This document shows, in pieces, positions 22,393 through 51,300 of a DNA stretch of 64,000 nucleotides. The position numbers and the translations under genes are program-made. Source of the stretch: Tubulanus polymorphus (taxonomy: Eukaryota; Animalia; Nemertea); contig NC_134027.1 in assembly GCF_964204645.1 (NCBI RefSeq), positions 27,676,560 through 27,740,559 on the forward strand, read 5' to 3'. Numbering within the stretch: position 1 is the stretch's first letter; every line of letters starts with the position of its first letter. Below the pieces are notes generated by a model that saw nothing but the letters and a program-made list of their open reading frames with translations, ran no database searches and was not told where the DNA came from.

Positions 22393-25300
22393 AATAGGGT
22401 GGTTGGTTGGTGAGTTGACTGGTTGACTTGTTGTGATGTTGAGATGTTGTGCACTAACTGGTAACCCCTATGAATCGAGGACGATAAGGTTTCTATGGTT
22501 CCGGTATTTCACTAGATTTATGTTGTTAAATTGTCAATGATCACGTGTTATCAACAGCAGCCAACTCTATAAACCATTCGCTATGATTACATCTTAATGA
22601 CGTATCTTATCTTTAATCTCCCAATTCAAACGAATCAAATCATGTTTGATTTAAGCATTTTTGGTGCTTCAATCGTCATTACAGATAGAATGCATTAACA
22701 AAACATTTAGAGACGAATCGAACTAGAAATAAAATTCTATTCATGTTTGTAGGAAAAATCATAATGAGATGTCGATCAGAAAAAACACGATATTTCAATT
22801 AAACGGTTCCACAGTAATTCACGGACCCGGACCCGGTTCCATCCACAGTAATTCACGGACCCGGACCCGGTTCCATCCACAGTTATTCACAGGACCCGGT
22901 TCCACCCACAGTTATTCACTAGCTAGCCCAGAGAGTTGATTCCCAGTGCTTCACTGCTCCGAGTTTCAATTTGACTTTATAAAGTTCAAACAATGTTAAT
23001 GAAATATAGTTTGAACTCAGCAGTTAGACTCTCACTCACAACTGCGGAACTGGATCGCACGTTTTAGTTAAACATAGGGAACGTGAGCTAGTCGGACTCT
23101 TCAAGCGGTAACTCAAAGTTTACTAAGTTTGAATTTAATTTCTAACTTTGTGAAAAATGTGAATAAAAGTATAATCGTAAACACAGAAAATATGGCAGAA
23201 AACTCGAATAGAAAATAAACCAACAATAATCTGGATATATGTTTAACAGAAACATACCTCGAGTGAATGACAACTGGTGTATCCGGATGAGACTGTTTGC
23301 GTGCTCTCTCTCCTCTCTCCTCTCTCCTCTCTCCTCTCTCTCGCCGATACTCGCGAGGATGATCGGGCAGAGAAACAAAATCGATGCATCAGCGACACAA
23401 ATCGTCGTAGCGTAGAAGATTGGAACTGACCAATCAGAGCCATGGGAAATCACGCAAGTATTCACTCATTTGTTAAATCAATATTCCCAGCGTCTGGTAT
23501 TAGTTCAACAGTTCGATTGTGTATATGTAATTACAGATCTATCTTTGAAGGTTCAGATACAAATTCGAAATAAGAAACATAATTTGGAGCAAGCATTTCT
23601 CAAGTGGTTGCTGAATGCTTACAATTCGATCGCGAAACAACAAATCAAGTTGATATGAAGCTTCTTTGTAAAGGAATTTGCGCACAATTCGGGAGGGAAT
23701 CTTATGAGATTTCTGATTTTTTATTAGTTAACGCTACTGGTCCTACAACTCATCGGTGAGATACTCTGGTGGCATTTTATATGTGTCTTTTTTCATGGAG
23801 CCAAAATCAATAAGAAATTGCATTGATCGAACCAGACCTTCAAGTCATACTACCGCGTCCTCGGCATGTGGTGAAATAGCTCTCTTTTGCCAGTTGTATT
23901 GATTTTACGTGTATATGTACAAAATCAGCAGGGACCGTAAATAAACTAGAAATATCACAAAAATAATACCACAAAAATAAGTTATTACCACTGATTAAGT
24001 TCTTATGAAATCTAACCCCTAAATTTCATCAATACTCTGTTTTAGTGTATACCCAGCCTGAGCGAGTCGACCTAGCGAGGCCCGACCTCAGATATCTCCA
24101 GTTGTGGCCAGTCACTCAACGAGGCTCGACCTCAGATCTTGTAGTCCCCTTTGAGAGACTGAAACAGTTTAATATCTGCCATATTGGAAAATAATGTTTA
24201 GGGATCGAGTGTCATTAGATCTCCGCTGATCACCTGATTTCAACATTCTCGCCCGAATATTCATTGAAACAACAAGAAAAATACTTACGAAGAAAATATT
24301 GTCGCCTGGTGGAAACATGGAGAATATAGTGATATATGCGTATAGGTGAAATGGGACATGGAGGTTTGTGTGTTTGGGGATTTTTCATGTAACTAGGGGT
24401 CCAGGGACATCGTGGTCACTTTGGACATGATTATAAGACTGGTGTACATCGCCCACAATACTTCAGCTGTCATTAAGTAAATGTTATAACCTTTCACTTG
24501 GTGTCAATCGATGGGTTATATTATTTGCAATAATATTGCATTATCAAATTTGCCGCCTTTAGGAATTAGAGGAAAGAAGCAGCTTTTTCTGTTTCGATGA
24601 CGTTTTGTGTGACTGTTAAACATCTCTCATTCGTAGTGGCTTATGAACAGTTTTTTATGGTTCTCATTGATGTGCGGTTACGGGCGCCAAAAATCTAGAA
24701 CGCGACTATAAATCTAGAACGCGACTGCTGTTCAACACAATACAGTACCGTACTGTTCAACTGAATACACTCAATACGTGTACGTTCGAAAGGATCACTT
24801 AAAACGTGTAACTTATTCGAACTATATTCAAGTTTCTAAGGAGAAATTAATTATATTTACTGGACTGTCAGAGCGACAGTTTTCACTGGATTCTCACATC
24901 TCTCCGACCGGTAAAACCTCTCTATCGTAAAGTAAGTATGACTACGTTTTTGTGAATCTGTGCAACAGGTTTCATATGTGAAGTTCATCTATAGGAACAA
25001 GTGAAATATTCTGCGGGATTATTCACGGGATTTACAGGATCCACGTTTTCTGGGGCGGCTCCAGGATTTTGCGAGGTGGGTTTCCAATAGAAATAGGATA
25101 CATCGTCTAAAAGGAGTGCTCCGAGGAGGGTAAGAATGCATTAGATGGGATCAGACAAATTTCAAAATTTCATCTCTAAGTGAAGGTATCCTACAACTTC
25201 TGACCAGAATCCCCCCCCCCCCCCCCAAATGAAAATTAAACGTGTCGCGTTGAAGAAATGACCCCCGACCTACAGCTTTTTCAGTTTTGTATTTTCAATT

Positions 25301-25424: not shown

Positions 25425-28400
25425 ATGGCTCTGCAATTATTTCTGAGGAATATCAGAAACCTGAAGCCGAAGACCGGCGTTAGTTTCAGTGCTTTAAACC
25501 GTTATACGACTTCGTCACAAACTGCAGACGATAGTAGACCTCGTTTGATAGCAACCATGAAACAGGGTGAAAAGGTATCTATATTCCAGTTTGTTCCTGT
25601 CCCATTTTGCGAGTGTCATTTGGCTTTTTACCAAGTTACATAACACATAGTGAATAATTGTCTCAATACCCGACAGTCTGATAAATGAGCTCGCATGATT
25701 TGAATAGACCAATCTCTAACAGTCGTGGTCATGGGATTGTCTATAGAATTCAGAATTTATTATCTTGTTTAGAATATATTCTTATCTACTGATCCGTATA
25801 TAAGTAATCCATGCGTATTGCAGACCTAAACCATACAATATATTTTTAATATTTGATGCCCAGTTATTTTCATTATTATTTATAACTTCATGCCTCACAA
25901 TGAGGTAGAGTCGTCTGTTTATTGTCTGTGAGTTTTAGCCAGTATTTTATAGCTCTTAGCTGAAAATGTAAATAAAGAGGGAATCTCCCCAAATCATCCT
26001 ATCTCAAAATACATTCTTGAAAAAGGGTTTGTTTCGTTGTTTAATAGGTTTGTTTCGTTGTTTAATAGGTTTGTTTCGTTGTTTAATAGGTTTGTTCCGT
26101 TGTTTAATAGGTTTGTTTCGTTGTTTAATAGGTTTGTTTCGTTGTTTAAAAGGTTTGTTTCGTTGTTTAATAGGTTTGTTTCGTTGTTTAATAGGTTTGT
26201 TCCGTTGTTTAATAGGTTTGTTTCGTTGTTTAATAGGTTTGTTTCGTTGTTTAAAAGGTTTGTTTCGTTGTTTAATAGGTTTGTTTCGTTGTTTAAAAGG
26301 TTTGTTTCGTTGTATAAAAGGTTTGTTTCGTTGTTTAATAGGTTTGTTCCGTTGTTTAATAGGTTTGTTTCGTTGTTTAATAGGTTTGTTTCGTTGTTTA
26401 AAAGGTTTGTTTCGTTGTTTAATAGGTTTGTTTCGTTGTTTAAAAGGTTTGTTTCGTTGTATAAAAAGGTTTGTTTTGTTGTATAAAAAGGTTTGTTTCG
26501 TTGTTTAAAAGGTTTGTTTCGTTGTTTAAAAGGTTTGTTTCGTTGTTTAAAAGGTTTGTTTCGTTGTTTAAAAGGTTTGTTTCGTTGTTTAATAGGTTTG
26601 TTTCGTTGTTTAATTTGTTTGTTTCGTTGTTTAATAGGTTTGTTTCGTTGTTTAATAGGTTTGTTTCGTTGCTTAATAGGTTTGTTTCGTTGTTTAAAAG
26701 GTTTGTTTCGTTGTTTAATAGGTTTGTTTCGTTGTTTAATAGGTTTGTTTCGTTGTTTAATAGGTTTGTTTCGTTGTTTAATAGGTTTGTTTCGTTGTTT
26801 AATAGGTTTGTTTCGTTGTTTAATAGGTTTGTTTCGTTGTTTAATAAGTTTGTTTCGTTGTTTAATAGGCGAGCGTGTTCTCAACAACTGAAATCGAAAA
26901 TAGAATATCGAAATTACGATCCAACATGAGTCAGAATGATATCGGCGGAATTGTGTTAACGTCATACCACAATATAAACTACTACACTGGGGGCTTCCTT
27001 TACTGTTATTTCGGGAGAAACTATGGTTTACTGGTTACACAGGACCAATGTTTACCCATATGCCCCAGTATTGATGCGGGTCAGCCCTGGAGGAGGTCAC
27101 TCATAGCCGATAATGTCGTCACTTATACAGATTGGCAGCGTGATAATTATTTCCATGCAGTACAGAATTGTCTGAAAGACACAAAAGGTAAAATAGGTCT
27201 CGAATTCGACCATGTCAGTTTGGATAATTTCAAGAAGTTCGATAAAGCTTTACCGAACGGCTCAGAGAAGGTCGATATCGGTGAGCCGACTATGAGAATG
27301 AGGATGGTGAAATCCGCTGAAGAAATCGACGTCATTAAATCTGGAACTGCTATAGCTGAAATAGGTGGCGCTGCACAGATCGATGCGTTACACGAAGGCG
27401 TACCCGAGCACGAGGTGGCGCTGGCGTCGACTCAAGCTATGATTCGTGAAATTGCTCACAGATATCCGCAATGTGAAATTATGGACAGTAAGTCTATAAA
27501 CTACAGGACTCCAGTTTAACAGTTGTGAGTTCAAATTCACTCATTGATTTTGAGGAACTGTGAAACCGGCTCCATTTGTTGCTGTCTTTATCCCAGTTTA
27601 AAATGTTAAATTGTTTCTAATTGTTTTAATGATATTATTCTGAAGCTTGGAGTTGGTTCATGTCTGGAGTAAACACAGATGGCGCTCATAATCCAGTAAC
27701 TACTCGTAAAGTGGAGAAAGGTGATATACTCAGTCTGAACTGCTTCCCGAATATTGCTGGGTAGGTATGACGTCACGATTATTTCTTCGTAAAACCGCTA
27801 GGGGGCAGCACTATTACTAGTTTGTTTATTTGAACAAGTTTATTGTGTTTCACAGTTTGTAATGTTTCTATTGAGTCATCTAATTTGTAATTTAGAGTCT
27901 CTGATCGAGTCGAGAAGAAACACATCCGTGATTGATTCGTCAGATGATCGCCTGATGATGGCTAATATTCAATACTACTTTTTGCACAGGTATCATATGG
28001 CTTTGGAGAGGACGCTATTTCTCGATCACGCTTCGGACAAACATCTGGAACTGTTTGAAAAGAACTGCGCCGTCCATCGTCGCGGTTTAGAACTAATAAA
28101 ACCGGGCGTTAGATGTAAAGATATAGCTCTTGAATTGAATGAAATGTATCGTCAGTTTGGGCTGTTACAATATCGTAGTTTTGGTTATGGTCATTCGTTT
28201 GGGTCATTGAGTCATTATTACGGACGAGAGGCCGGTAAGAACAGAAATACATCGTAGATATCCTATAGTTTCCAGGTGTTGAATATTAATTAGCATTAAT
28301 TAGCATAATTTTGCATATATTTGCATAAATTATTCAGTGAAAAATAGATAATTACATTATCTCATTCGTTCTTCATTATTGAAGTCTCGACTGTAAGACG

Positions 28401-28746
28401 GTGTTTACACAAATTTACATAAATCTGCATAAATTATCATATTTTAATATAGTAAAGATATTTATATTAATTTGCACGAATCTACATTAATTATCCTTAA
28501 AAAAATTCTAAAAATGAATGGGTTGGAATAATTCTTTCAATTTTAGCTCTAGAATTACGGGAAGATATTGAGACTGTATTGGAACCAAATATGGTAATAT
28601 CGATGGAGCCTATGATAACAGTACCGGAAGGAGAGGCTGGAGCTGGTGGTTACAGAGAACATCACATTGTAGTCATTACTGAAACAGGTGCTGATATTGT
28701 TACCAAATTTCCATTTGGTCCCGAACACAATATCATTAAAAAATAA
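25425..28746 (+). CDS. Creatinase-family (creatine amidinohydrolase, M24 pita-bread fold) paralog 1, divergent pocket, putative mitochondrial presequence; 442 aa
   Basis: Exons 25425-25574, 26869-27487, 27646-27760, 27990-28234, 28547-28746 (1329 nt, in phase, GT-AG). Creatinase motifs TSYHNINYY, FGR, QPWRR, YTDWQRDNYF, NTDGAHNPVTTRKV, LERTLFLDH, FGYGHSFG.LSHYYGREA, SMEPM, GAGGYREH, TKFPFGPEHNII. Confidence 0.93.
26026..26868. repeat. 21-bp minisatellite (gtttgtttcgttgtttaatag) forming the 3' end of creatinase-1 intron 1
   Basis: About 40 copies; the last unit supplies the acceptor AG at 26867-26868. Confidence 0.95.
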
Positions 28747-29421
28747 TCCACTTTCGAATAACATTATTCAATCACGTATTATTTTCTAATGTGATTTTAT
28801 TCGTATATAGAATAATAACCTCTCATCAATTATTATGAAAAGTCTTAAATAAATTCATCTTTTAATTCAGTTTAATTGTTTTTTATTTATCTGCTGGGTC
28901 GCTCAACTGTAGTCTGGATTCGAACCTGAGTCCACCGGCCCACTGGGTCACCGGCCCGAACTCCTGAGTGATCACTATCAACATGACCCACATCAACATG
29001 AAACAATCTTCGGAATCTTGGGCGCTAAAGTTTACAAGAAGTGTTAATTCAAAGATTCTCCGATTAACGAGATAACTAATTTTCCTATCGGAATGATTGG
29101 AGATGTTTTGAAATTATCAAGCCTAAGCGAGCCTGGGGCTGACCTCTCTGATGCAGTCGTCCTAGTGAGAGACTTGACCTCGGATCTCTCTGGCTGTAGT
29201 GGCCCATCACTCGAGTGAGGCCCGGTCTCGCGTGTCTCAGGCTGTGGCCCATCACTCGAGTGAGGCCCGGTCTCGCGTGTCTCCAGCTGTGGCCAGTGAC
29301 TCTTTCTCACATTTTATATTGAGCTTGTTGAAAATTTATCAAATCTTATTGCTGTTTGTTTGTTTGTTTCTCTTAATATCTCAGTGTTATACGCTCTGTG
29401 TGAGATATATTTGAACTCGGT

Positions 29422-29660
29422 GAGGCCCGACCTCAGATATCTCCAGTTGTGGCCAGTCACTCAGCGAGGTTCGACCTCAGATATCACCAGTTGTGGACAG
29501 TCACTCAGCGAGGTTCGACCTCAGATATCTCCAGTTGTGACCAGTCACTCAACGAGGTTCGACCTCAGATATCTCCAGTTGTGACCAGTCACTCAACGAG
29601 GCTCAACCTCAAATATCTCCAGTTGCGGCCAGTCTCTCAGCGAGGCTCGACCTCAGATCT
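29422..29660. repeat. ~43-bp minisatellite upstream of creatinase 2
   Basis: About 5 copies; single-copy homolog at ~24078-24140. Confidence 0.88.
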
Positions 29661-30067
29661 TGTGGTCTCCTTTGAGAGACTGAAACAGTTTGATATCTGC
29701 TATATTGGAATGTACTGTAGGGCCGAGTGCCATTAGATCTCCGCTGATCACCTGATTTCAACATTCTCGCCCGAATAATCATTGAAACAATTGGCTACAA
29801 ATTTAAAACGTGACTAGCAAATCTAGAACGCGACTGTTGTTCAACACAACTGTTCACAGTATAAACTGATAGTCGATTACTGATCAATTGATACTAGAGT
29901 CACACTTAAAACTTTTGTTGTACTTTGTTCAAGTGTCGATTTTCTGATATGCGAGAAATTGATAATATTTACTGGATCAATCTGGTGGAGCCCGGCTCAA
30001 ACTGATAAAGGAAGGTGTCGCCACTGTAATCTCCGACTGGTAAACCGTGCCTTTCATTAGATAAGCA

Positions 30068-30468
30068 GCTCTCCGACTGGTAAAAGCTCTCTATTGTCAG
30101 GATTATCAGCTCTCCGACTGGTAAAACTTCTCTATTGTCAGGATTATCAGCTCTCCGACTGGTAAAACCTCACTATTGTCAGGATTATCAGCTCTCCGAC
30201 TGGTAAAACTTCTCTATTGTCAGGATTATCAGCTCTCCGACTGGTAAAACTTCTCTATTGTCAGGATTATCAGCTCTCCGACTGGTAAAACTTCTCTATT
30301 GTCAGAATTATCAGCTCTCCGACTGGTAAAACTTCTCTATTGTCAGGATTATCAGCTCTCCGTCTGGTAAAACTTCTCTATTGTCAGGATTATCAGCTCT
30401 CCGACTGGTAAAACCTCACTATTGTCAGGATTATCAGCTCTCCGACTGGTAAAACTCACTATTGTCAG
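30068..30468. repeat. 41-bp minisatellite in the putative 5'UTR exon of creatinase 2
   Basis: About 10 copies ending at a cag|gtacgt donor; single-copy homolog at ~24900-24931. Confidence 0.88.
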
Positions 30469-30727
30469 GTACGTTTAAACTGCTGTATAAGTATGTTGCA
30501 TAAACTTGTGCACAGGTTGTTTTAGATGTATCTAGGCACCAGATGAAAATATTCTGCGGGTTTTTTTCATGCGGTTTACAGGATCCACGATTTCTTCTTA
30601 CGTGTGCGGGGATTAAAACAATCAAGGTATAATAAACAATGTAGAACCTGAATGTAGGACTATTTGTGTGTATTTGTATTTCCAGCTATTGTACTGTGTA
30701 TTTAAATGTGTATTTGTATTTTCAGCG

Positions 30728-33700
30728 ATGGCTCTGCAATTATTTCTGAGGAATGTCAGAAACCTGAAGCCGAAGACCGGCGTTAGTTTCAGTGCTTTAA
30801 ACCGTTATACGACTTCGTCACAAACTGCAGACGATAGTAGACCTCGTTTGATAGCAACCATGAAACAGGGTGAAAAGGTATCTATATTCCAGTTTGTTCC
30901 TGTCAAATTTTGCGAGTGTCATTTGGCTTTTAACCAAGTTACGTAACACATAGTGAATAATTGTCTAGACAATTATCTAGACTCATATAAAAGATCTCTG
31001 ACACAGTTTGATAAAGGCCCTCGTGATACGAGTAGAACAAGGACATATAATATAATCGCGGTCAATTGATTTCTTATATAGAATTTAAAAGTTTTAGAAC
31101 TGAATTTATCGATTTAACAATTTGGACTAGAAATAGCTCTGACTAAAGATCGTACCTGATGATCGTTCAAATACCTGAATAATTTCTGTTTTAGACACGT
31201 GATTTGTTTCAACTCATACAAGGATACGTGTCTAATAAACAACCATTTTCCTGACGAGAATAAATTCTTATCTACAGATCCGTATATAGAATCACCCCTA
31301 TCTCAAGATAGCGTTTGTTTCGTTGTTTGATAGGTTTGTTTCGTTGTATAAAAAGGTTTGTTCCGTTGTTTAATAGGTTTGTTTCGTTGTTTAATAGGTT
31401 TGTTTCGTTGTTTAATAGGTTTGTTTCGTTGTTTAAAAGGTTTGTTCCGTTGTTTAATAGGTTTGTTTCGTTGTTTAATAGGTTTGTTTCGTTGTTTAAT
31501 AGGTTTGTTTCGTTGTTTAAAAGGTTTGTTTCGTTGTTTAATAGGTTTATTTCATTGTTTAAAAGGTTTGTTTCGTTGTTTGATGGGTTTGTTTCGTTGT
31601 AAAAAAAGGTTTGTTTCGTTGTTTAATGGGTTTGTTTCGTTGTATAAAAAGGTTTGTTTCGTTGTTTAATAGGTTTGTTTCGTTGTTTAATAGGTTTGTT
31701 TCGTTGTTCAAAAGGTTTGTTTCGTTGTTTAATAAGTTTATTTTCGTTGTTTAATAAGTTTGTTTCGTTGTTTAATAGGTTTGTTTCGTTGTTTAATAGG
31801 TTTGTTTCGTTGTTTAAAAGGTTTGTTTCGTTGTTTAATAAGTTTGTTTCGTTGTTTAATAAGTTTGTTTCGTTGTTTAATAGGTTTGTTTCGTTGTTTA
31901 ATAGGTTTGTTTCGTTGTTTAAAAGGTTTGTTTCGTTGTTTAATAAGTTTGTTTCGTTGTATAAAAAAGTTTGTTTCGTTGTTTAATAGGTTTGTTTCGT
32001 TGTATAAAAAGGTTTGTTTCGTTGTATAAAAAGGTTTGTTTCGTTGTTTAATAGGTTTATTTCGTTGTATAAAAAGGTTTGTTTCGTTGTTTAATAGGTT
32101 TATTTCGTTGTATAAAAAGGTTTGTTTCGTTGTTTAATAGGTTTGTTTCGTTGTATAAAAAGGTTTGTTTTGTTGTTTAATAGGTTTGTTTCGTTGTATA
32201 AAAAGGTTTGTTTCGTTGTTTAATAGGTTTGTTTCGTTGTATAAAAAGGTTTGTTTCGTTGTTTAATAGGTTTGTTTCGTTGTTTAATAAGTTTGTTTCG
32301 TTGTATAAAAAGGTTTGTTTCGTTGTTTAATAGGTTTGTTTCGTTGTATAAAAAGGTTTGTTTCGTTGTTTAATAGGTTTGTTTCGTTGTTTAAAAGGTT
32401 TGTTTCGTTGTTTAATAGGTTTGTTTCGTTGTTTAATAGGTTTGTTTCGTTGTTTAATAGGTTTGTTTCGATGTTTAAAAGGTTTGTTTCGTTGTTTAAT
32501 AGGTTTGTTTCGTTGTTTAATAGGCGAGCGTGTTCTCAACAACTGAAATCGAAAATAGAATATCGAAATTACGATCCTACATGAGTCAGAATGATATCGG
32601 CGGAATTGTGTTAACGTCATACCACAATATAAACTACTACACTGGTGGCTTCGTTTACTGTGCTTTCGGGAGAAACTATGGTTTACTGGTTACACACGAT
32701 CAGTGTACGACAGTTTGTCACGGTATTGATGGGGGTCAGCCCTGGAGGAGATCACTCATAGCCGATAATGTCGTCACTTATACAGATTGGCAGCGTGATA
32801 ATTATTTCCATGCAGTACAGAATTGTCTGAAAGACACAAAAGGTAAAATAGGTCTCGAATTCGACCATGTCAGTTTGGATAATTTCAAGAAGTTCGATAA
32901 AGCTTTACCGAACGGCTCAGAGAAGGTCGATATCGGTGAGCCGACTATGAGAATGAGGATGGTGAAATCCGCTGAAGAAATCGACGTCATTAAATCCGGG
33001 GCTGCTGTAGCCGATATAGGTGGCGCTGCAGGAGTCGACGCGTTACGTGATGGCGTACCCGAGCACGAGGTGGCGCTGGCGTCGACTCAAGCTATGATTC
33101 GTGAAATTTCTCACAGATACCCGCAATGTGAAATTATGGACAGTAAGTCTATAAACTACAGGACTCCAGTTTAACAGTTGTGAGTTCAAATTCACTCATT
33201 GATTTTGAGTCAAATTTGAACTCACAACTGTGAAACCGGCTCCAGTTGTTGCCATCTTTATCCCAGTTTAAAATGTTAAATTGTTTCTAATTGTTTCAAT
33301 GACATTATTCTAAAGCTTGGACTTGGTTCCAGTCTGGAATGAACACAGATGGCGCTCATAATCCAGTAACTACTCGTAAAGTGCAGAAAGGTGATATACT
33401 CAGTCTGAACTGCTTCCCGATGATATCTGGGTATGTATGACGTCACGATATTTTCGTCGTAAAACCGCTAGGGGGCAGCACCATCGCCGCACGCTGTATT
33501 TTTTCAAGATGTTGTGAACGGTCGAAATTTGATCCTTATTGAACTTACTTAAGCTCTTGAGAGCGTTTGTCGGTTTCAACAAAGTGTACACAAGTTTGTC
33601 TTATACCTCTAATACCTGCCAGGGATTTGAGTGTAAATAAAATAAGATTTAAAAAGATACTCTTCACTTTGCACAGGTATTATACGGCTTTAGAGAGGAC

Positions 33701-34417
33701 GCTATTTCTCGATCACGCTTCGGACAAACATCTGGAACTGTTTGAAAAGAACTGCGCCGTCCATCGACGCGGTTTAGAACTAATAAAACCGGGCGTTAGA
33801 TGTAAAGATATAGCTCTTGAATTGAATGAAATGTATCGTCAGTTTGGGCTGTTACAATATCGTAGTTTTGGTTATGGTCATTCGTTTGGGTCATTGAGTC
33901 ATTATTACGGACGAGAGGCCGGTAAGAACAGAAATACATCGTAGATATCCTTTAGTTTCCAATTGTTAAACATAAATTTGCATGAATTAGCATATTTTTG
34001 CATAAATTATTCTGAAGAAAAATAGATAATTACACGATTTCATTCTTTCTTCATTATTGAGGTCTCGACTGTAAGAAGGTTTTTTACGCCAATTTACATA
34101 AATCTGCATAAATTATTGTATTTTAGTAAAGATACTACATAAATTAACATATATCTGCATTAATTATCTTACAAGACTTCCAAAATGAATGGGTTGGAAT
34201 AATTTTTTCGATTTTAGCTCTAGAATTACGGGAAGATATTGAGACAGTATTGGAACCAAATATGGTAATATCGATGGAGCCTATGATAACAGTACCGGAA
34301 GGAGAGGCTGGAGCTGGTGGTTATAGAGAACATGATATACTAGTCATTACTGAAACAGGTGCTGAAAATATTACTAAATTTCCGTTCGGTCCCGAACACA
34401 ATATCATTAAAAAATAA
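30728..34417 (+). CDS. Creatinase (creatine amidinohydrolase) paralog 2, canonical motifs, putative mitochondrial presequence; 442 aa
   Basis: Exons 30728-30877, 32524-33142, 33316-33430, 33677-33921, 34218-34417 (1329 nt). Matches recalled Pseudomonas creatinase motifs IDGGQPWRR, ADIGGAA, DTWTWFQSG.NTDGAHN, NCFPMI.GYYTALERT, GGYREHDIL, ENITKFP. Confidence 0.95.
31314..32523. repeat. 21-22-bp minisatellite forming the 3' end of creatinase-2 intron 1
   Basis: More than 50 copies; same unit as 26026-26868. Confidence 0.95.
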
Positions 34418-39200: not shown

Positions 39201-42200
39201 GGATGAAATTAACCATAGACAATTTAAACACGCGTTCTCAAACGGATTAAATTAACCATACACAATTTAAACACGTGTTCTCAAACGGATGAAATTAACC
39301 ATACACAATTTAAACACGTGTTCTCAAACGGATGAAATTAACCATACACAATTTAAACACGTGTTCTCAAACGGATGAAATTAACCATACACAATTTAAA
39401 CACGCGTTCTATAACGGATGAAATTAACCATACACAATTTAAACACGCGTTCTCAAACGGATGAAATTAACCATACACAATTTAAACACGCGTTCTAAAA
39501 CGAATGAATGACGTGTAAAACATGAATCTCACTTACGCTGTAACTACTCAACAAATTGAAATCAGCTTTGATTAATTTTCTCGTCGGTGTCGGCGTTAAA
39601 CCGTCCTCAAATAGTTTCGTCCTCGACGTTTCAACTGAAATATATAAATAAAACTTCTGAATGAATTTACATGGAAGAAACAGAGCTGTTTATGAGAACA
39701 AGGATTAAAGAGACAGTAACAGATTCTACAGTTCATTTCTAAATCAAATAGTATTCATTTCAAGTTATATTCAGTGATTACTGGTGAGCAGCGATACCGT
39801 ACTGGTAGCAGCGATACCGTACTGGTACTGCAGCAGCGATACCGTACTGGTACTGCAGCAGCGATACCGTACTGGTACTGCAGCAGCGATACTGTACTGG
39901 TACTGCAGCAGCGATACCGTACTGGTACTGCAGCAGCGATACCGTACTGGTACTGCAGCAGCGATACTGTACTGGTACTGCAGCAGCGATACTGTACTGG
40001 TACTGCAGCAGCGATACTGTACTGGTACTGCAGCAGCGATACCGTACTGGTACTGCAGCAGCGATACCGTACTGGTAGCAGCGATACCGTACTGGTACTG
40101 CAGCAGCGATACCGTACTGGTACTGCAGCAGCGATACCGTACTGGTACTGCAGCAGCGATACTGTACTGGTACTGCAGCAGCGATACTGTACTGGTACTG
40201 CAGCAGCGATACTGTACTGGTACTGCAGCAGCGATACTGTACTGGTACTGTAGCAGCGATACCGTACTGGTACTGCAGCAGCGATACCGTACTGGTACTG
40301 CAGCAGCGATACCGTACTGGTACTGCAGCAGCGATACCGTACTGGTACTGCAGCAGCGATACTGTACTGGTACTGCAGCAGCGATACTGTACTGGTACTG
40401 CAGCAGCGATACTGTACTGGTACTGCAGCAGCGATACTGTACTGGTACTGCAGCAGCGATACTGTTACATGTATAGTATTATAGCAGACACAGTCAGGGT
40501 TTATAGTCGTACAGGCTGAGACAAAGTAAACCGTTTTAACGCTCTTTTTGATTGTAAAAGTCAGCACTTTTTAAGCATCTTGTAGACTGACTATGAACCC
40601 TGTCGGTAGAGTGTAGAGTTAAATTGTTAATTCTTACTACTAAAATTAGATGATTAACACCATGAACCCAGGGGAAGGTGTACAGTGCTCGAACCTCTCC
40701 GATTAAAGTCAGGGGAAGGTGTACAATACTCTAACCTCTCTGATTAAAGTCAGGGGAAGGTGTACAATACTGTAACCTCTCCGATTAAAGTCAGGGGAAG
40801 GTGAACAGTCGGCTATTGAAACCAAAACCCGATTATATAGTAGAAATTAAAATAGAAACTGTTTTAATTAATAATCATAAATCACCCGAGCTTTTTACAG
40901 GTTCTCGCAGGCCTGAAATGGAATAATTATCACTGTATATATGAAACACTAGTGACAGACGTGATAAATCTCTCATCATTACCTCCTGATATTGTATTCC
41001 TTCTTTGTAAATCACCTTTATAAATTACATACAAATAAACATTAAAATATTGAAACAAAAATAAATGAATTCACAACAAAAACTGAATCAAGAGAATCTT
41101 GAGATTTTACCGTAAGCGGTCGGTTTGAGTTGACGATGTTCACCGGCTGACCCTCGAATAGCTTCCATTAACTCCTCGCGAGGATCAAAATCACGTTTTG
41201 GAGGAGACTTCAACACTCGGTCTTTAGCCTGACAAAATATCATGACTCATCGTCAAAATAAAAGCCATGATTTATAGGTGTGTGATTGATACCGGTTCTT
41301 ACTGGATGTAACGGAGGTCTAGTACTTACCGGATGTAACGGAGGTCTAGATCTTATAAACTCTAATATCACTGCGTGCGCATCTTCTTTTACTTTAGCCG
41401 GCAATTTACTAGTTTCAATCTGTAGAATAAATCAGTAAGATTATTCTTTATTCAGAGGGAAGGAAGGAGGTAGAAGGGGAGGTAGGGAGGAGGGCATCCT
41501 CCCGTGGCAGGGATTTGATGGCATCGAGACTCATCACGGTATGAAACCCTGCCACTCTAGACCGAGTGCGCAGCTACATGCACAGCTTAGATGATGTCAT
41601 TATTTGCAATCAGATATCCCGCTTTATTTCAGCACAGGTTTTCCCATTTATAGTTCTTTTGTGAAATTTGCACAAGCGATTATACAACGAGCAATCTGAT
41701 TGGTGCCGCAAGTTTTCGTGCGGTAAAGCTGCGCATGTACCTGCGCACCCGGTCTAGTGTGGCAGGGGCCTTCATGCCGTGGCTGAGTGTAGCAAGTGAT
41801 GTCATCAGGTTGGAATCCCTGCCATGGAGGATGGATAGGGAGGTAGGGTGGTAGGATGGATAGGGAGGTAGTAGGGAGGGTGCCAGGATGGATAGGGAGG
41901 TAGGATAGATAGGGAGGTAGGAGGGAAGGTAGTAGGGAGGGTGGTAGGATGGATAGGGAGGTAGAAGGGAGGGTGGTAGTAGGGAGGGTGGTAAAATGGA
42001 TAGGGAGGTAGTAGGGAGGGTGGTAGGATGGATAGGGAGGTAGAAGGGAGGGTGGGAGGGAGGGTGGTAGGATGGATAGGGAGGTAGGAGGGAAGGTGGA
42101 AGGAGGGTTGTAGGATGGATAGGGAGGTAGTAGGGAGGGTGGTAAAATGGATAGGGAGGTAGTAGGGAGGGAGGTGGGAGGTAGGTATAATTTACCTGTA

Positions 42201-45200
42201 CTTTATTCAGTCTATATCTCCTGTATCTAATATCCTCCATTAACATCTCATAAGGCGTTAACTCATACTCTATAGACTGTGAATAATGATTTTGAGTTTT
42301 TTTGAGTTGAATTCCGGTTCTCATCTGTTTCAATACTTGAATCCATATTCGAGCCTATAATTAATCATCATAATTATAATTAACTAATCATAGATAACAG
42401 TGATGATGATGATGAACTCAATATCTGTATATTGATTGACTAATTATGTCTATTTCAACTCGGTTTGAAGGGACATCAAGTGGCCTAACTCATGTCAGTT
42501 TCAGTAGTACATATACCTGATATAGCTCGGTTTGAAGGGACATCAAGTGGCCTAACTCATGTCAGTTTCAGTAGTACATATACCTGATATAGCTCGGTTT
42601 GAAGGGACATCAAGTGGCCTAACTCATGTCAGTTTCAGTAGTATATATACCTGATATAGCTCGGTTTGAAGGGACATCAAGTGGCCTAACTCATGTCAGT
42701 TTCAGTAGTACATATACCTGATATAGCTCGGTTTGAAGGGACATCAAGTGGCCTAACTCATGTCAGTTTCAGTAGTACATATACCTGATATAGCTCGGTT
42801 TGAAGGGACATCAAGTGGCCTAACTCATGTCAGTTTCAGTAGTACATATACCTGATATAGCTCGGTTTGAAGGGACATCAAGTGGCCTAACTCATGTCAG
42901 TTTCAGTAGTACATACCTGTAGCTATCGGGTCTGGTATGTTGTACTCATAAAACTGACTGTTATATTGAAATAGAATAAGGACTATTGAGTCCACTGGGA
43001 GTCATGACCGGTATAATCATATTGATTGAGTATTTTAAGATCCGATGATTGGACTTTATTGATTGATTCTTTAAGATCTGATGATCTATGATGTGACTCT
43101 ATTGATTGAGTCTGTACCCTGTAATCAAATTCTTACCCAATCAACTCTTTCCAGATCTTCTAATTGTTTTTCCTCGTCTCGAACTTTTTCTTCGTTAAAC
43201 GATATTTTCTCGAGGAACGTCACTAATTCCTCAGCCTCGCTCACTAACGCTCGACATACAGCTCTATAGTGTGAATCACTGTCATCAGGTAAATGTCTAC
43301 GACAAACCTATAATAGATACACATAGACAGTGACAACAGACACCACAGGGAGGGAGGGGTCTCGAGGAAACTGCTGCAGCACTCACAGAAAACATACTTT
43401 TTAAAACTGATCTATTTTTGAAGTATTATTCTACTAGCTGCAGACTGCACACAGATATATTCAGCCAGATGAGTCCTCCCATCCCCCGTCTAGCTGATAT
43501 AATACTGTATCAGTGATTGAATAGATATAATAGTAAATTCTCCCGGGGACCCCCCCCCCTGTTAATGATATATGTAATACAGTATCTAATAGAAAACAGT
43601 AATTTCTAGTAATTGATCAGCAAAACAACAATCGCTATAATTACACATCTATCAACAGTATTTATATATCACATGACCAGTAAAATAATGTATAAAATTA
43701 CTCTCAATTACGGACAACAAACAACGCAAAAATAGATCAGATAAAAACATCGCGCAGTTGTTTTACCGTAACAGAACACCAGTCCAAAGTTAGTTAGGTT
43801 TATATAGAACCGAAATGAGCTTAGACTGGTCTTAAGTTGTTAGATTGTTTATAGAACAAGAATGTGACTGTGAAACTGGAACCAATTAATTTTACCTTCA
43901 AAACATCATTTAAAGTGAATGAATTCTGATTAATTGAATCATTTTCGATTCCTTCATCGTCGATTCCATCCGTTGATTCAGAGTGTTTCGACGAATCGGT
44001 CATTTTTAAGATGATTTCCTCGAGTTGTGAACTCAGTGAATGTTCCTCAGTCGCTTGTAAACCGTAGTCTAAAGCTCTGTATATCACAACTCCGAGAGAT
44101 TCCAATAACTGAAATAAACACGACTCCACATCATCCACCAGGTGTCACTAGTGTGCAGTAGGCACTAGAACATCAACAGTTTATGATCACGCCACAAGTG
44201 GAATCCACTATTGTCGCAGTAGTTGACAATAGAGGATTCCACATTTGTGGTATGAAAATCCACCAGGTGTCGCTAGTGTGCAGTAGGCCCACAATGCCGG
44301 ATTTTTACTCAGATTCAATTAAAATCAACCCATAATTTTCTAAAATTCAATTGAATGAATGGATTGGGAATGAGAAACCAGTGAAGGGGGGGGGGGGGGG
44401 GTAGAGAAGGTTGTTTCCGCGGAGAGAAGTAAAACTTAACCATTCAAATCATTTCTCAATTCTCTGATTTATAAACTATCATAGTATAATGAACTTGAGG
44501 AGGTAAGTTGTAATAGTTCATGTTAATAAAACTGTCTCTCACCAAATCATTATACAAACACTCTGAAAATATATCAGACTTATGAATCAATCTCAAACAT
44601 CTCTGACAGAGAAACAGGACCCGATACCGATCTTACATATGCTCCCTCCCTGTAGCCTCTCTCACACCCTCCCCCACAGTAGCCTCTCTCACACCCTCCC
44701 CCCACAGTAGCCTCTCAACCCCCTCAAGCCTGTAGCCTCTCTCACCCTCTCCCCCCACAGTAGCCTCTCTCACCCGCTACACACTTTGTAGCTAATTTAC
44801 CTGTGATTCTGTCTCTGCCAAATCTGAAAATACAAAACAGAACAATAGAAAAACAAAAAAAGAAATGAATTTAGGCCTACAAGTGGAATGAACAGTGATA
44901 AACTGTGTCTGTTGTGAAGAATGCGTGTCTGGTGTATCGTCTGGGGGGGTCAGAAGCTCAGCTCATTATCAATCCTGCACATTTGTTATCATGAAACACA
45001 ATTACCCATGAATTTGATGGAAGGGATCTAATGTTTTTGTAATCAATCAACTTGTTGTTCATAAAAATGAAATCAGTCAGACACAAACACAGATGAGTCA
45101 CCACACAGGAATTGTACGGTACTCCTCCCTGTTGTGTTGTTACCCTACTCAGCCCTCCTCTAACCCTGTATCCCTCACTGACCTCTCTCTACCCCTCCCT

Positions 45201-45506
45201 ACCTCCTCTTAACCTCTACCGATATACCATCTTACCTGTACAATCTCGAGCAGTCGTAGAAATGTGTCCATCTTTATGAATAAAAACTGATTGTAATCCG
45301 TTTAAACAGTAACACTGACTGGCGCCCTGTTCCACACCGTCCTCCCCGCTCCCTCCGCCCTTCACACAGTTCCATCTGTCTGATAAATAATACGCGCACT
45401 CGTAACAAACAGCCCAGGCCTGTTCCTCATTGATAGGAGCATTAAATACTTCAACTATCTCACTTAAAAGTCTTCCATCAGTATCATTACCGCTACCGGC
45501 CGCCAT
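36270..45506 (-). CDS. SPIRE: Protein Spire (KIND, 4x WH2, Spir-box, FYVE-type zinc finger); ~763 aa
   Basis: 16 in-phase exons: 45236-45506, 44801-44823, 43896-44108, 43137-43307, 42196-42354, 41330-41419, 41111-41228, 40983-41015, 40886-40912, 39537-39634, 38936-39071, 37931-38178, 37264-37401, 37082-37183, 36904-37001, 36270-36636. Motifs [79 protein letters not shown]...[12 protein letters not shown]. Confidence 0.95.
38203..38702. repeat. 30-bp minisatellite in Spire intron
   Basis: tcagtcatcaggggagtcatgtatctacaa, about 16 copies. Confidence 0.93.
39085..39505. repeat. ~45-bp minisatellite in Spire intron
   Basis: catacacaatttaaacacgtgttctcaaacggatgaaattaac, about 9 copies. Confidence 0.92.
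39788..40465. repeat. 24-bp minisatellite in Spire intron
   Basis: gcagcgataccgtactggtactgca, about 28 copies. Confidence 0.95.
41497..41830. mobile_element. Foldback/MITE-like element with ~90-100-bp imperfect terminal inverted repeats
   Basis: cctcccgtggcagggatt...cctgccactctagaccgagtgcgcagctacatgcacagctt is inverted relative to aagctgcgcatgtacctgcgcacccggtctagtgtggcagg...aatccctgccatggagg. Confidence 0.7.
42459..42917. repeat. ~68-bp minisatellite in Spire intron
   Basis: About 7 near-identical copies. Confidence 0.93.
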
Positions 45507-47592
45507 CTTTATTATTATTTCAATACATACGACATACAACGTACGACTTACAACATACACTAAACCGACATACAACTTACAACATACAACAAATTCAAAA
45601 TTACTTTATTTAATTCAATTAATAATTTATTGATGTGCCGTCCGGCGTGGTGCCGATTCAAAGATGTGTAAAATAAAGGGATCAACTTGATCCAAACCCA
45701 AAACATTCAAACCCGCAGTGTGTGTCATCATCAGGTAGGCCAAGACTATTAGGGCTCACTAATCAGATGCCGCAACGGGTGTCCCGGGACGCATTTCAGG
45801 GGTCCATCCCTTCATTTTTCCCTTCATGTGGAAAATGCAGTGAAATTGACTCATTCTGAAACTGAGGGCCGAGAACCCCTCATGCGTCGCCCGCATCGCG
45901 GCCTGCGAGCCAACCCGGCACAAATTTTTCCCGGCACCACTCCCTGAACGATATTCTATTTTCATCTTTTGAACTGAATGACGAAAATAGGTCAGTGCGT
46001 TTTAAGGCTACACCAGAAATTCTGAATTTTTGGCCTAAGTCGAAGTGACCTGCATTTACTGGCGACAATTCAATAGTGGATTTAAATATTGTATAAAGTT
46101 AATAGTGAATATTGTAAGTTTGACGGAAATCCTCCAATGACCTGTTTCGGTTATAATAGACGAATAATGCGTAATATGAAACGCATCACTATGTGACAGA
46201 TACTTGGTCGATATCAGAGGTGCATCCAGCGTGAGCCCCGTCATTCCGCAGTAGACAGACCAGCAGTGCGCCGTGGTGTCTACAGTAGAGAGAGAGGAGT
46301 GTCGCGGAGACCAGCAGTGCACGTGGTGCCTATAGTACAGAGAGGAGTCTCGTGGAAGATATCGTCAAAAACAAGGCAGAAAAAAGGAACTCACAATATC
46401 TGAACTTGACAGCCGCAGTTTTGAAACCAGGAGACGAGATGGAAAGATACAATGATAGTCGTTACCCGAGACATCACTTCTTGGGTATGTTAATATTATA
46501 GGTATACGATACTTGTTACTGTTGGTTTATTTTCTCGAGTCGGCTGATATAAATTCACGTAAAAACCAATTAGTAAATCAATGAAAAGAGCGTCCTGTGA
46601 AATCATTTGGATACCCGGTATTCATTAGATACCGGTATCGGATTTTCTAAGTTTTCTAACCTTTTCACTCGTGTTTCTGGATTGGTAAATATTAGAATAT
46701 GGAGAACAAGAAACCAACATTTCATCACCGGTAGTTACTAAGTATCACAGTTGTATAGGTAAAACAATTATCGATTCTCCTATTCTTTCAGGGAGGTTAT
46801 CTTCAGAAGGACCGAGCAACTGAAAATCTCTTCAACACAGCACCGAAATTTCAGAGAGTTTGAAACCAGGCAGCAAGAAGAAGATACTAAACCCCGGCCC
46901 GCTTAGACGTCACTTCTGAGGTTTGTTATACATGTACTATATTATATATTGTGGATACCGTGAATAGAATATAAAATGCATTATTAGGAAATCAATGAAA
47001 TAACGTATTGATATTGTTTATTTCTGGATGAATTGAAGTTACCTAAATGAACATTATACATAGAAAAAATAATTTACAATATATAATAGTCTATAATGAG
47101 TTATTAACATTTCCAATACAACAGCAAGGATGCCAAAAGAAACCTAAAGCTTGTAAAAATGATAACATTAGATAGATTATGAAAAAATGAATATAACTGC
47201 CTGATTCATTCATCCATATCATCATGATGATCTTTTCTCCTTATAACCTGACTTGGAACAGATGCTGCACGAATTTCTCTGCGCTGCATTTCTAGTTAAA
47301 CGGTGATATTCTTGTAAATGTTCTTCGAATCTTCCCTGAATTTCGATCTCGCAAAATACAGAAAATCCCATCATATTTGGTATCACTGCTGACTTGCTAG
47401 TACGCGGGATATTTCACTTGGAGGAGGAGTTAATACACTTTATTTGTATCCTTAATTAATCTTCCTTGACTCTTGTAGCCAGGTACCCTTATAGTTTTAC
47501 CAATATAGGCTGTGTTTATAAAACGAGATAAATCCCACAATAATGAAGCCAAAATTGTAAAGTTCTATATTAAAATGATTATATTTGAGGAG

Positions 47593-48399: not shown

Positions 48400-51300
48400 G
48401 CTAGACTTAATTTAGTTTAAACATTCGGCTCCTCGGCGCTCTGTGTGAAATTAGATTGGGTAGTGGGTGGATTAGACAAGACATTTCTGAGTTTGTCAGA
48501 CAGTCTGACCGCGGAATTTCGACCGGAGATCGAGCGCGATATTGAAAAGCCGGATCGTTCCGGGGCTCAAACGGGAGCCGAAATTCTTCCGGGCCCATGT
48601 CAGGGCGACATCCTGTCCTGACAGTCCGGCAGAGGATCACCCATTAGCTCAACAAATGTGCCGGCATAATGAATGGTCAGCTCTTTCGAAACTGTCTCAT
48701 CCAGTTGTCCGCGGCAGCGTGCAGCTGCACCGTCACTGCTTCAGTGCAGGCAGCTGGTCGCAGGAACGTCTTGAGGTGCTCCCCCTTCCTCCGCATCGCT
48801 TTCGGTACAACGCTCAGCTGGACAAAGTGGTGCGCCACTTGAAGAGCTCTATAGTAAGTTTTCGGCGACATCCCGGGTTGCTGGTGTCGCTGGGGGTGTC
48901 CTCCACCCGTGCTAGAAAATCCGCGACATCATCAAGCATTTCATCAACGATTTCCTCTAATTCATCTTCTGCCGGCAAATCATCGACAGCGGCAAGCTCA
49001 TCAACCATTGGTTCCTTCTTCTAATGGATCTGCGACTGGTCGCTTTTCCATCTAATAATAATAAAGATATAAAGATTATAAAGCGCGCACCTGTTTACCC
49101 TTGCGGTTTCATTTCCCAGTGTTCGCTAAATCTCTCTTTACTCGAGAAATAGATGCCACATTGATAAAGGTTATTCCCCTTGGAATTAGAAAAAAATCTA
49201 CCTCGTTAATTTCGTCGACAGCCGGCTCTGCTGCAGCTTCATCTAACTATTAACAATAAAAATTGATTATTTTTTCTTTATCATACATTCATACTTCATT
49301 TTTTACATATTACATTTATTTTATCTATTTATTTTTTCTATCATACATTAATCTCAATTAATTATGCATCTCCCGGCAGGCGCCACCGCATCTACCTAAT
49401 AACGATAGAAATTGATTATTATTTCGGATGAAAATAAACAGTGGGATTAAAGGGTTTGATAATTTCTGTGACAAAGAAATCATTTTTCTTAACAAAAATA
49501 ATCGATGATATAATTCGCTTATATTGCGAAGAACTTAAGAAATAATTGCCATGATTTACATTAAAAAACACAATAGATGCAAAATTAATAAAAAATGGTT
49601 ATTTCCATTGGAATTACAAGAAAATCTCCTACCTCATGAACCACTGGTTCCGCCTCCGGTTCATCCGCCGGTTCCGCCTCCGGTTCATCCGCCGGTTCCG
49701 CCTCCGGTTCCGCCTCCGGTTCCGCCTCCGGTTCCGCCTCCGGTTCATCCGCCGGTTACGCCGCCGGTTACGCCTCCGGTTCATCCGCCGGTTCCGCCTC
49801 CGGTTCCGCCTCCGGTTCATCCGCCGGTTCCGCCTCCGGTTCATCCGCCGGTTCCGCCTCCGGTTCATCCGCCGGTTCCGCCATTTCTCCATCTAACTAA
49901 TAACAATAAACATGAATTATTATTCCGGATGAAAATAAACAGTGGGATTAATGGGTTTGATTATTTCTTTAAAAATCTCTTACCACAACTTCTTTATTTG
50001 ATAAGAATTCGCGATAACGCGCGTCGTTCGGCCGCAGGCCATGTAATTGCGTTTTGAGGTGGTGGTCCAGCCGTTGGACCACTGCCCGGCACCCGCCAAT
50101 CGGGCAACGATACCTTCGTGGTATTAAAGCGAGTCGTTGAAAATAAAACATTCGGTATCATTAGTTTGTTTAGCTGTAGTTATAGTGGGATTTCTCTTGT
50201 TATTCATCATACATCGGGTAGTGAGGGTCGAGTGAGGGTCGAATGAGGGTCGAATGAGGATTAATGGGTTTGATAATTTCTTTAAAAATCTCTTACCACA
50301 ACTTCTTTATTTAATAAGAATTCCCGATAGCGCGGGTCGTTCGGCTGCAGGCCATGCCTGTTTGTAGGTGGCGGTCCAATCGCTTAACCACTGCCCGGCA
50401 CCCGCCAATCGGGCAACGATACCTTCGTGGTATTAAAGCGAGTCGTTGAAAATAAAACATTCGGTATCATTAGTTTGTTTAGCTGTAGTTATAGTGGGAT
50501 TTCTCTTGTTATTCATCATACGTCGGGTAGTGAGGGTCGAGTGAGGGTCGAGTGAGGGTTGAATGAGGGTCGAGTGAGGGTCGAGTGAGGGTCGAGTGAG
50601 GGTCGAGTGAGGGTCGAGTGAGGGTCGAGTGAGGGTCGAGTGAGGGTCGAGTGAGGGTCGAGTGAGGGTCGAGTGAGGGTCGAGTGAGGGTCGAGTGAGG
50701 GTCGAGTGAGGGTCGAGTGAGGGTCGAGTGAGGGTCGAGTGAGGGTCGAGTGAGGGTCGAGTGAGGGTCGAGTGAGGGTCGAGTGAGGGTCGAGTGAGGG
50801 TCGAGTGAGGGTCGAGTGAGGGTCGAGTGAGGGTCGAGTGAGGGTCGAGTGAGGGTCGAGTGAGGGTCGAGTGAGGGTCGAGTGAGGGTTGAATGAGGGT
50901 CGAATGAGGATTAATGGGTTTGATAATTTCTTTAAAAATCTCTTACCACAACTTCTTTATTTAATAAGAATTCCCGATAGCGCGGGTCGTTCGGCTGCAG
51001 GCCATGCTCGTTGTAGGTGGCGGTCCAATCGCTTAACCACAGCGCGGCACCCGCCAATCGGGCAACGATACCTTCGTGGTATTAAAGCGAGTCGCTGAAA
51101 ATAAAACATTCGGTATCATTAGTTTGTTTAGCTGTAGTTATAGTGGGATTTCTCTTGTTATTCATCATACATCGGGTAGTGAGGGTTGAGTGAGGGTCGA
51201 GTGAGGGTTGAATGAGGGTCGAGTGAGGGTCGAGTGAGGGTCGAATGAGGATTAATGGGTTTGGGTTCGTTCGGCCGCAGGCCATGCAATAGATTTCTAT

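What the first reader, a model, noticed from the sequence alone, without database searches (positions are those of the whole stretch)
25425..34417. Intron-containing, apparently mitochondria-targeted creatinase genes in an animal genome
Seen: two complete 5-exon genes whose products carry the creatinase signature motifs throughout. Each has a ~37-aa N-terminal extension (MALQLFLRNIRNLKPKTGVSFSALNRYTTSSQ...) rich in R/K/S/L and free of acidic residues for its first 34 aa. Neighbours are clearly animal genes (Spire, GPCR), so this is not bacterial contamination. Established: creatinase (EC 3.5.3.3, creatine to sarcosine plus urea) is characterised in bacteria; vertebrates lose creatine only via creatinine; sarcosine dehydrogenase is a mitochondrial matrix enzyme. 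Inference: an animal mitochondrial route creatine > sarcosine > glycine/one-carbon pool, acquired by old horizontal transfer or retained patchily.
Basis: partly seen in the sequence, partly recalled or inferred. Interest (0 to 1): 0.85.

Follow-up and report, generated by a model that had tools for sequence, protein, structure and literature searches.

The report
Mitochondrial creatinase family in marine animals
A ribbon worm carries two intact, intron-containing copies of a bacterial-type enzyme gene that likely breaks creatine down inside mitochondria; a coral gene has three of its four introns in the same places, so this unstudied gene probably predates the split of corals and worms, and one worm copy has changed around its predicted active site.

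Summary
Real. Two tandem genes with five coding exons each encode 442-aa creatinase-family proteins, identical to RefSeq 'creatinase-like' records of the nemertean Tubulanus polymorphus. Contigs from two studies splice copy B at all four introns. Both copies keep the ten creatinase pocket residues checked, lack the peptidase metal site and match solved creatinases (E 6e-163). The gene is not peculiar to this genome: named homologues come from 23 animal species (nemerteans, hemichordates, cnidarians), mostly with a basic, acid-free presequence. A coral gene shares 3 of the 4 introns in position and phase, so cnidarian and nemertean genes have one old origin. The tree puts animals beside a mostly alphaproteobacterial clade but leaves animal monophyly unresolved (45/0). 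New here: copy A departs at 10 near-invariant positions (B at 4), several beside catalytic residues, in patches that seem to resist gene conversion. Activity, import and the downstream enzymes are untested. Ten literature searches found no study of an animal creatinase, though databases name it. The scan noted an intron-rich creatinase before on other DNA (e1-7367176).

The parts
25425..25574 (+). Gene A coding exon 1: start codon, predicted mitochondrial presequence (about aa 1-34), second in-frame Met45
   Evidence: identical to RefSeq XP_074646046.1
26026..26869 (.). 21-bp tandem array, 40 copies, at the 3' end of intron 1 of gene A
26869..27487 (+). Gene A exon 2: Creatinase_N domain (Phe98, Arg100) and start of the M24 domain; divergent patches at aa 91-126 and 208-226
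27646..27760 (+). Gene A exon 3: His271 (His232 of 1CHM), Asn288; A-specific Q262M and M292N
27990..28234 (+). Gene A exon 4: Glu301, His363, Arg374; A-specific Y297H and T298M
28547..28746 (+). Gene A exon 5 to stop codon: Glu397, His415; A-specific D416H
30066..30469 (+). 41-bp tandem array (9.9 copies) whose last unit probably ends the non-coding first exon of gene B; one related unit lies upstream of gene A at 24902
   Evidence: exact donor inferred
30728..30877 (+). Gene B coding exon 1: start codon, predicted mitochondrial presequence, Met45
   Evidence: exon 1 to exon 2 joint in contigs of X2 and X5
31308..32524 (.). 21-bp tandem array, 57 copies, at the 3' end of intron 1 of gene B
32524..33142 (+). 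Gene B exon 2
33316..33430 (+). Gene B exon 3; both flanking introns match coral introns in position and phase
33677..33921 (+). Gene B exon 4
34218..34417 (+). Gene B exon 5 to stop codon; protein identical to XP_074646978-80
24076..24272 (.). Upstream segment 90% identical to 29597-29790: the duplicated unit (about 5.5 kb) includes upstream DNA

Best explanation
Both genes are intact nuclear creatinase-family genes of a nemertean, and the spliced copy B likely encodes a mitochondrial creatinase that is predicted to split creatine into sarcosine and urea. Inferred working: the basic presequence takes the protein into the matrix and is cut off; the mature enzyme forms the metal-free creatinase dimer, His271 activates water, Glu301 and Glu397 hold the guanidinium group, Arg374 and Arg100 of the partner subunit hold the carboxylate; sarcosine would then go to matrix sarcosine dehydrogenase, giving glycine and one-carbon units. 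The gene is old in animals: it had introns in the common ancestor of cnidarians and nemerteans and was inherited from there, with losses. Copy A is an older duplicate than its 93% identity suggests; gene conversion probably keeps most of it like B, while patches around the pocket stay different, most likely because A has shifted substrate preference or kinetics.
For: Family: E 6e-163, 3e-159 and 1e-153 to the three solved creatinases against 1e-22 to the best prolidase; the model of A matches them at TM 0.83-0.84, peptidases at 0.73 or less among the rows shown. Ten pocket residues are kept in both copies and in 415-419 of 419 other rows. Splicing: B introns 2-4 are skipped at GT..AG, and exon 1 joins exon 2, in contigs of two runs from two studies. 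Presequence: 67 of 93 animal-clade rows have 33 or more residues before Gly48, and 59 of these 67 have at most one D/E and at least three K/R in the first 25 aa; 6 of 248 non-animal rows are that long (many rows are near-copies). Helical moment of B aa 1-25 is 0.77, reached by 137 of 5000 shuffles; no signal-peptide-like hydrophobic core. Age: coral loci L082/L083 have introns at B positions 50/0, 116/1, 151/0, 256/1, 294/2 against 50/0, 256/1, 294/2, 376/1 here, chance 1e-7, or 1e-4 if only a tenth of positions can take an intron. Tree: hemichordate (100/100), nemertean-containing (100/99) and cnidarian (98/91) clades. In the sister bacterial clade one creatinase gene lies next to a creatininase gene (L066; 1 of the 10 loci scanned, 41 of 119 ORFs sent). 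Copy A: 17 A-specific against 4 B-specific changes (p 0.007); dS 0.33 and dN/dS 0.38 in four patches against 2 silent changes in 201 sites elsewhere; longest identical run 245 nt, reached in 1 of 20000 permutations.
Against: No activity or localisation was measured, and no targeting predictor was available. Sarcosine dehydrogenase, creatine kinase and creatine synthesis genes could not be checked in this genome. Animal monophyly has support of only 45/0 (52% of 200 bootstrap trees), and a tree joining hemichordates to the alphaproteobacterial clade is not rejected (p-AU 0.36; group chosen after seeing the tree). Met45 could start a cytosolic form. B itself has the odd A116H and A246S. The excess of A-specific changes is weaker with distant outgroups (14 against 6, p 0.12, with Oculina). 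The patches were delimited after the data were seen. Residue roles are recalled from the P. putida structure papers, which I could not read.
Confidence: 0.7

Rival explanations
1. The animal enzymes, or copy A alone, act mainly on another guanidino compound (for example glycocyamine, taurocyamine or lombricine, the bases of other invertebrate phosphagens) and not on creatine.
For: A changes Y297, T298, M292, Q262 and D416, each conserved in 393-418 of 419 rows. Duplicates with pocket changes recur: E397V in a Lineus copy and in a fragment of an unnamed medusozoan-like cluster, M399H in octocorals. Use of creatine by this worm is not shown.
Against: B has the bacterial consensus at all ten pocket residues checked and at those five positions and is 65-69% identical to bacterial members of the family.
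Confidence: 0.12
2. Copy A is a relaxed or decaying duplicate with no new function; conversion from B keeps its frame open.
For: A departs at 10 of 152 columns that are at least 95% conserved, B at 4; some changes (D214E, A210T, D416H) could simply destabilise the fold; the A branch is three times longer (0.070 against 0.023).
Against: In the unconverted patches dN/dS is 0.38 (Fisher p 0.001), the frame and all splice sites are intact, and all ten pocket residues are kept although neighbours changed.
Confidence: 0.3
3. The animal genes come from more than one transfer (hemichordates separately), or the gene is older than animals (an early eukaryotic or mitochondrial-ancestor gene lost widely) and not a transfer into the animal stem.
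For: Monophyly of all animals is unsupported. The sister clade is mostly alphaproteobacterial (98/92). Creatinase genes are common on plasmids (1004 records with a match, distant M24 hits included), so bacterial donors are hard to trace.
Against: Shared introns tie cnidarian and nemertean genes to one origin; the best tree needs one change for 22 animal rows against 19 for shuffled labels; hemichordate proteins carry the same kind of presequence.
Confidence: 0.35
4. The proteins are cytosolic, made from Met45, and the extension is not a functional presequence.
For: Met45 aligns with the bacterial start region and is kept in several animal homologues; some database models begin there.
Against: The upstream frame is open, basic and acid-free in nemerteans, hemichordates and cnidarians although its sequence is not conserved; exon 1 is spliced into the transcript.
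Confidence: 0.08
5. Bacterial contamination, assembly artefact or a misread Xaa-Pro peptidase.
For: Closest non-nemertean hits are bacterial at 67-69% identity; Pfam gives only the broad M24 families.
Against: Spliceosomal introns removed in contigs, animal neighbours, A-specific DNA present without differences in contigs of run X1 (possibly the source sample), and Asn288/Ala299/His415 where peptidases have metal-binding Asp/Asp/Glu (correspondence recalled).
Confidence: 0.01

Closest known systems
Bacterial creatinase (creatine amidinohydrolase, EC 3.5.3.3): Pseudomonas putida 1CHM, Alcaligenes 7YTO, Actinobacillus 1KP0
   Same: Two-domain Creatinase_N plus M24 layout, 59-61% identity in the structural alignment of A, ten pocket residues, no metal site.
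   Different: Nuclear, spliced, with a presequence of about 36 aa; duplicated, with copy A changed at conserved positions near the pocket; activity not measured.
Auto-annotated 'creatinase-like' proteins of invertebrates (RefSeq, UniRef), including Saccoglossus 'Creatinase-like protein 228' (APU50784.1)
   Same: The window's two proteins are themselves such records; same clade, presequence and, for a coral, three introns.
   Different: Nothing sets B apart; no functional, localisation or evolutionary study was found in the ten searches.
Xaa-Pro dipeptidases and aminopeptidase P (M24B), ectoine hydrolase EutD/DoeA
   Same: Pita-bread fold.
   Different: About 20% identity, far below NCBIfam cut-offs (single exons scanned); metal ligands absent.
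Microbe-like metabolic genes described as deuterostome novelties (Simakov et al. 2015, PMC4729200)
   Same: Animal genes with introns whose best matches are microbial; transfer against repeated loss is the same open question.
   Different: This family is also in cnidarians and nemerteans. 'Creatinase' is absent from the main text and the two readable spreadsheets; the supplementary PDF and one spreadsheet could not be read and may mention it.

Membership tests
Creatinase (EC 3.5.3.3) | Creatinase_N plus M24 domains and high similarity to solved creatinases | tested here: met
Creatinase (EC 3.5.3.3) | His232, Glu262, Glu358, Arg64, Arg335, Phe62, His324, His376 (1CHM numbers; roles recalled) | tested here: met
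   H271, E301, E397, R100, R374, F98, H363, H415 in both copies (mapping, counts)
Creatinase (EC 3.5.3.3) | Consensus residues next to the catalytic ones (Gln223, Met253, Tyr258, Thr259, Asp377) | tested here: inconclusive
   Met in B, changed in A; effect on activity unknown
Creatinase (EC 3.5.3.3) | Hydrolysis of creatine to sarcosine and urea | not testable with these tools
   needs an enzyme assay
Creatinase (EC 3.5.3.3) | Homodimer with a shared active site | not tested
   dimer of the P. putida enzyme is stated in PMC4108388 (passages); no complex job sent
Xaa-Pro peptidases (M24B) | Dimetal site Asp, Asp, His, Glu, Glu | tested here: not met
   Asn288, Ala299, His363, Glu397, His415 (correspondence to the peptidase site recalled from Bazan et al. 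1994, not held)
Mitochondrial matrix proteins with a cleavable presequence | Basic, hydroxylated, acid-free, amphipathic N-terminus without a hydrophobic core | tested here: met
   (composition and helical moment only; no trained predictor)
Mitochondrial matrix proteins with a cleavable presequence | Import and processing | not testable with these tools
   model shows aa 1-34 at pLDDT under 50, which fits but does not show it
Horizontally acquired, domesticated animal gene | Nested among bacterial sequences, with introns and animal neighbours | tested here: met
   only close bacterial relatives were in the tree and the root is not inferred
Horizontally acquired, domesticated animal gene | Absent from the non-animal relatives of animals | not tested
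   hit lists were capped at 120 and dominated by bacteria; the exhaustive search had not run

The most novel reading that the evidence does not exclude
Animals had an enzymatic, mitochondrial route for breaking down creatine from before the cnidarian-bilaterian split, taken once from an alphaproteobacterium-like donor and later lost in vertebrates, and duplicates such as copy A have repeatedly been retuned into amidinohydrolases for other phosphagen bases. The textbook view that animals lose creatine only as creatinine would then describe a derived vertebrate state.
Probability: 0.3. Interest if true: 0.75.

Novelty: new variant of a known kind. Interest (0 to 1): 0.55.

Why it matters
Creatinase is treated as a microbial enzyme (PMC11601203, PMC11970497, passages), and work on sponges and marine bacteria assigns creatine breakdown to microbes. 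An old, intron-bearing, probably mitochondrial creatinase in corals, jellyfish, acorn worms and ribbon worms would give animal hosts their own way to turn creatine into glycine, one-carbon units and urea, which bears on phosphagen evolution and on nitrogen cycling in coral holobionts. The A/B pair is a ready natural experiment on creatinase specificity: 32 differences, core residues intact. It is testable with a standard urea assay. The enzyme type is known and the genes are already labelled in databases, which caps the surprise.

Tried and rejected
No whole genome is held, so creatine kinase, AGAT, GAMT and sarcosine dehydrogenase were not checked. Expression of A: no listed run is on record as RNA; in the two runs with spliced contigs the letters shown at positions that tell A from B were B-type or uncovered, and 66 pieces were not shown; this is no evidence for or against expression of A. 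Run X6 laid nothing. GPCR neighbour: no match among 60 ORFs scanned against Pfam or in the PDB. The exhaustive protein search was still queued; no result was used. Literature: ten searches. One search ('creatinase-like') gave 0 papers. One search was badly set (any two of six terms): none of the 40 listed of 6,893 holds 'creatinase'; none of the 25 listed of 494 holds 'nemertean'. A crab paper (PMC13351845, passages) names a 'creatinase' gene but describes arginine-to-creatine conversion, so it was not taken as evidence. PMC6884489 (passages) asserts creatinase action in rat brain by citation only. Bazan 1994 and the 2018 nemertean genome paper are not held. PMC7568399, PMC11601203 and PMC12467219 (passages) gave no residue list or invertebrate creatine kinase distribution. 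P0257/P0211 look presequence-like but group with Acidiphilium and were not counted as animal. Positive selection on A is not shown: dN/dS stays under 1 in every patch. Tree rows: 22 of 94 animal-clade rows and 52 non-animal rows (61 picked by distance plus 3, minus 12 dropped for run time) went into the careful tree; all 422 rows were in the FastTree run, which also gave one animal clade, support 39. No complex prediction was sent, since a creatinase dimer would pass by likeness to solved structures.
Full report
Observation. Splicing the window at GT..AG boundaries gives two tandem genes with five coding exons, 1329 nt and 442 aa each, differing at 63 nt and 32 aa. They are identical to RefSeq XP_074646046.1 (A) and XP_074646978-80 (B), both 'creatinase-like' of the nemertean Tubulanus polymorphus and both on a 27.8-Mb contig. 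Contigs of runs X2 and X5, from two studies, skip B introns 2, 3 and 4 exactly and join exon 1 to exon 2; the runs are not on record as RNA, so cDNA is inferred from the joints. One X2 contig adds a non-coding first exon from the 41-bp array upstream of B. Spire, LicD and P450 genes lie in the window; the GPCR was not confirmed.

Family. A matches the solved creatinases 1CHM, 7YTO and 1KP0 at E 6e-163 to 1e-153 and the best prolidase at 1e-22. Its AlphaFold model (mean pLDDT 78, aa 1-34 under 50) finds the same three first. Mapping through the 1CHM alignment, both copies keep Phe62, Arg64, His232, Asn249, Ala260, Glu262, His324, Arg335, Glu358 and His376, each found in 415-419 of 419 other rows. 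The roles of these residues and their match to the peptidase metal site are recalled; the source papers were not readable here (one search showed passages and references only).

Targeting. The first 34 residues hold five K/R and no D/E. The helical moment of aa 1-25 of B exceeds all but 137 of 5000 shuffles, and there is no hydrophobic core. Among 93 animal-clade rows, 67 have a long N-terminus and 59 of those are basic and nearly acid-free; 6 of 248 non-animal rows are as long (rows include isoforms and near-copies). Composition is kept while sequence is not, as expected of a presequence. Import is inferred, not shown.

Distribution. Named homologues come from 23 animal species: two nemerteans, three hemichordates and 18 cnidarians (stony corals, octocorals, an anemone, a jellyfish). 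The nearest ESM Atlas cluster has 118 members, 89% eukaryotic, commonest Echinodermata (a lead only). No vertebrate, arthropod or nematode name appeared, but each list was cut at 120 and filled with bacteria, so absence is not shown; loss in vertebrates is recalled knowledge.

Origin. A scan of metagenome contigs with a coral exon gave 80 loci, of which L081-L085 are coral-like and L082/L083 hold one whole gene. Its five introns map to B positions 50/0, 116/1, 151/0, 256/1 and 294/2; the nemertean introns are 50/0, 256/1, 294/2 and 376/1. Three of four shared has a chance of 1e-7 to 1e-4. Acropora and Pocillopora database isoforms break at two of the same points. So cnidarian and nemertean genes descend from one intron-bearing gene. 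In the 74-row tree the 22 animal rows form one side of a branch with support 45/0; hemichordate, nemertean-containing and cnidarian groups are each well supported, and all sit with an 11-row, mostly alphaproteobacterial clade at 98/92. Joining hemichordates to that clade is not rejected (p-AU 0.36). One origin for all animals is therefore likely but not shown, and transfer into the animal stem cannot be told from older eukaryotic inheritance.

The two copies. Differences are patchy: codons 127-207 are identical and 301-411 carry two silent changes, while four patches (91-126, 208-226, 246-300, 412-433; chosen after seeing the data) have dS 0.33 and dN/dS 0.38; the flanks are as unlike as random DNA, though some upstream segments are 90-95% alike. 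This fits an old duplication under gene conversion. Against the nearest outgroup A has 17 private changes and B 4 (p 0.007), weakening with distant outgroups (p 0.12 with Oculina). A departs at 10 of 152 near-invariant columns, B at 4; two are shared with other nemertean-group rows. Y297H and T298M lie on the strand that carries Ala299 and Glu301, M292N follows Asn288 and D416H follows His415. A shift in substrate or kinetics is my preferred reading (about 0.55), relaxed decay the rival (about 0.3). Expression of A was not established.

Mechanism. Shown: gene structure, splicing of B, family, residues, shared introns. Inferred: matrix import, creatine hydrolysis to sarcosine and urea, and hand-over to sarcosine dehydrogenase, whose mitochondrial location in mammals is stated in PMC6884489 (passages) but whose gene could not be checked here.

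Prior knowledge. Ten searches of the held library found no study of an animal creatinase; subscription journals are mostly missing. Seen as passages: PMC4729200 (plus two spreadsheets searched; PDF unreadable), PMC7568399, PMC4108388, PMC8864220, PMC13351845, PMC6884489, PMC11970497, PMC11601203, PMC12467219, PMC6790972; the rest as listings. The Saccoglossus protein carries a submitter's name, 'Creatinase-like protein 228', so someone has noticed it; the unread supplement may discuss it. I also recall an old, unconfirmed report of creatinase activity in human muscle, and creatine kinases in cnidarians and annelids; neither comes from a call.

Verdict. A real and old animal gene family, a mitochondrial-type variant of a known bacterial enzyme, labelled in databases but apparently unstudied, with a diverged duplicate that makes specificity easy to test. 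Interest 0.55.

Noticed in passing
P0003/P0123 (Lineus) and fragment P0236 (unnamed, medusozoan-like cluster): Independent duplicates in two lineages both replace the conserved Glu397 (Glu358 of 1CHM) with Val, beside a canonical copy; octocoral copies share M399H and D383H.
   Followed up: partly
L081:2-400 and 4438-4635: A coral-like contig holds the last exon of one creatinase gene and, 4 kb on, an exon of a second, more divergent copy; Paramuricea has five records on three contigs plus the query. Tandem duplication recurs.
   Followed up: no
window 26026-26869 and 31308-32524: The same 21-bp tandem array (40 and 57 copies) runs right up to the intron 1 acceptor of both genes and forms the acceptor itself.
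   Followed up: no
window 25559 and 30862 (Met45 codons, approximate): A second in-frame Met at the bacterial start region could give a cytosolic form beside the mitochondrial one.
   Followed up: no
window 41683-45605, minus strand: Spire gene exons (KIND domain).
   Followed up: partly
window 53611-54486, minus strand: Long open frame with a LicD family match (E 4e-9).
   Followed up: no
window 56864-60772, minus strand: Exons of a cytochrome P450 gene.
   Followed up: no
window 48509-49024 and 51515-52240: Two related GC-rich open frames, apparently copies of a repeated element; no Pfam match for the second.
   Followed up: no
   Followed up: partly
L051, L056, L070 upstream of the creatinase gene: PotABCD-like ABC transporter genes directly precede creatinase in three alphaproteobacterial loci.
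   Followed up: no
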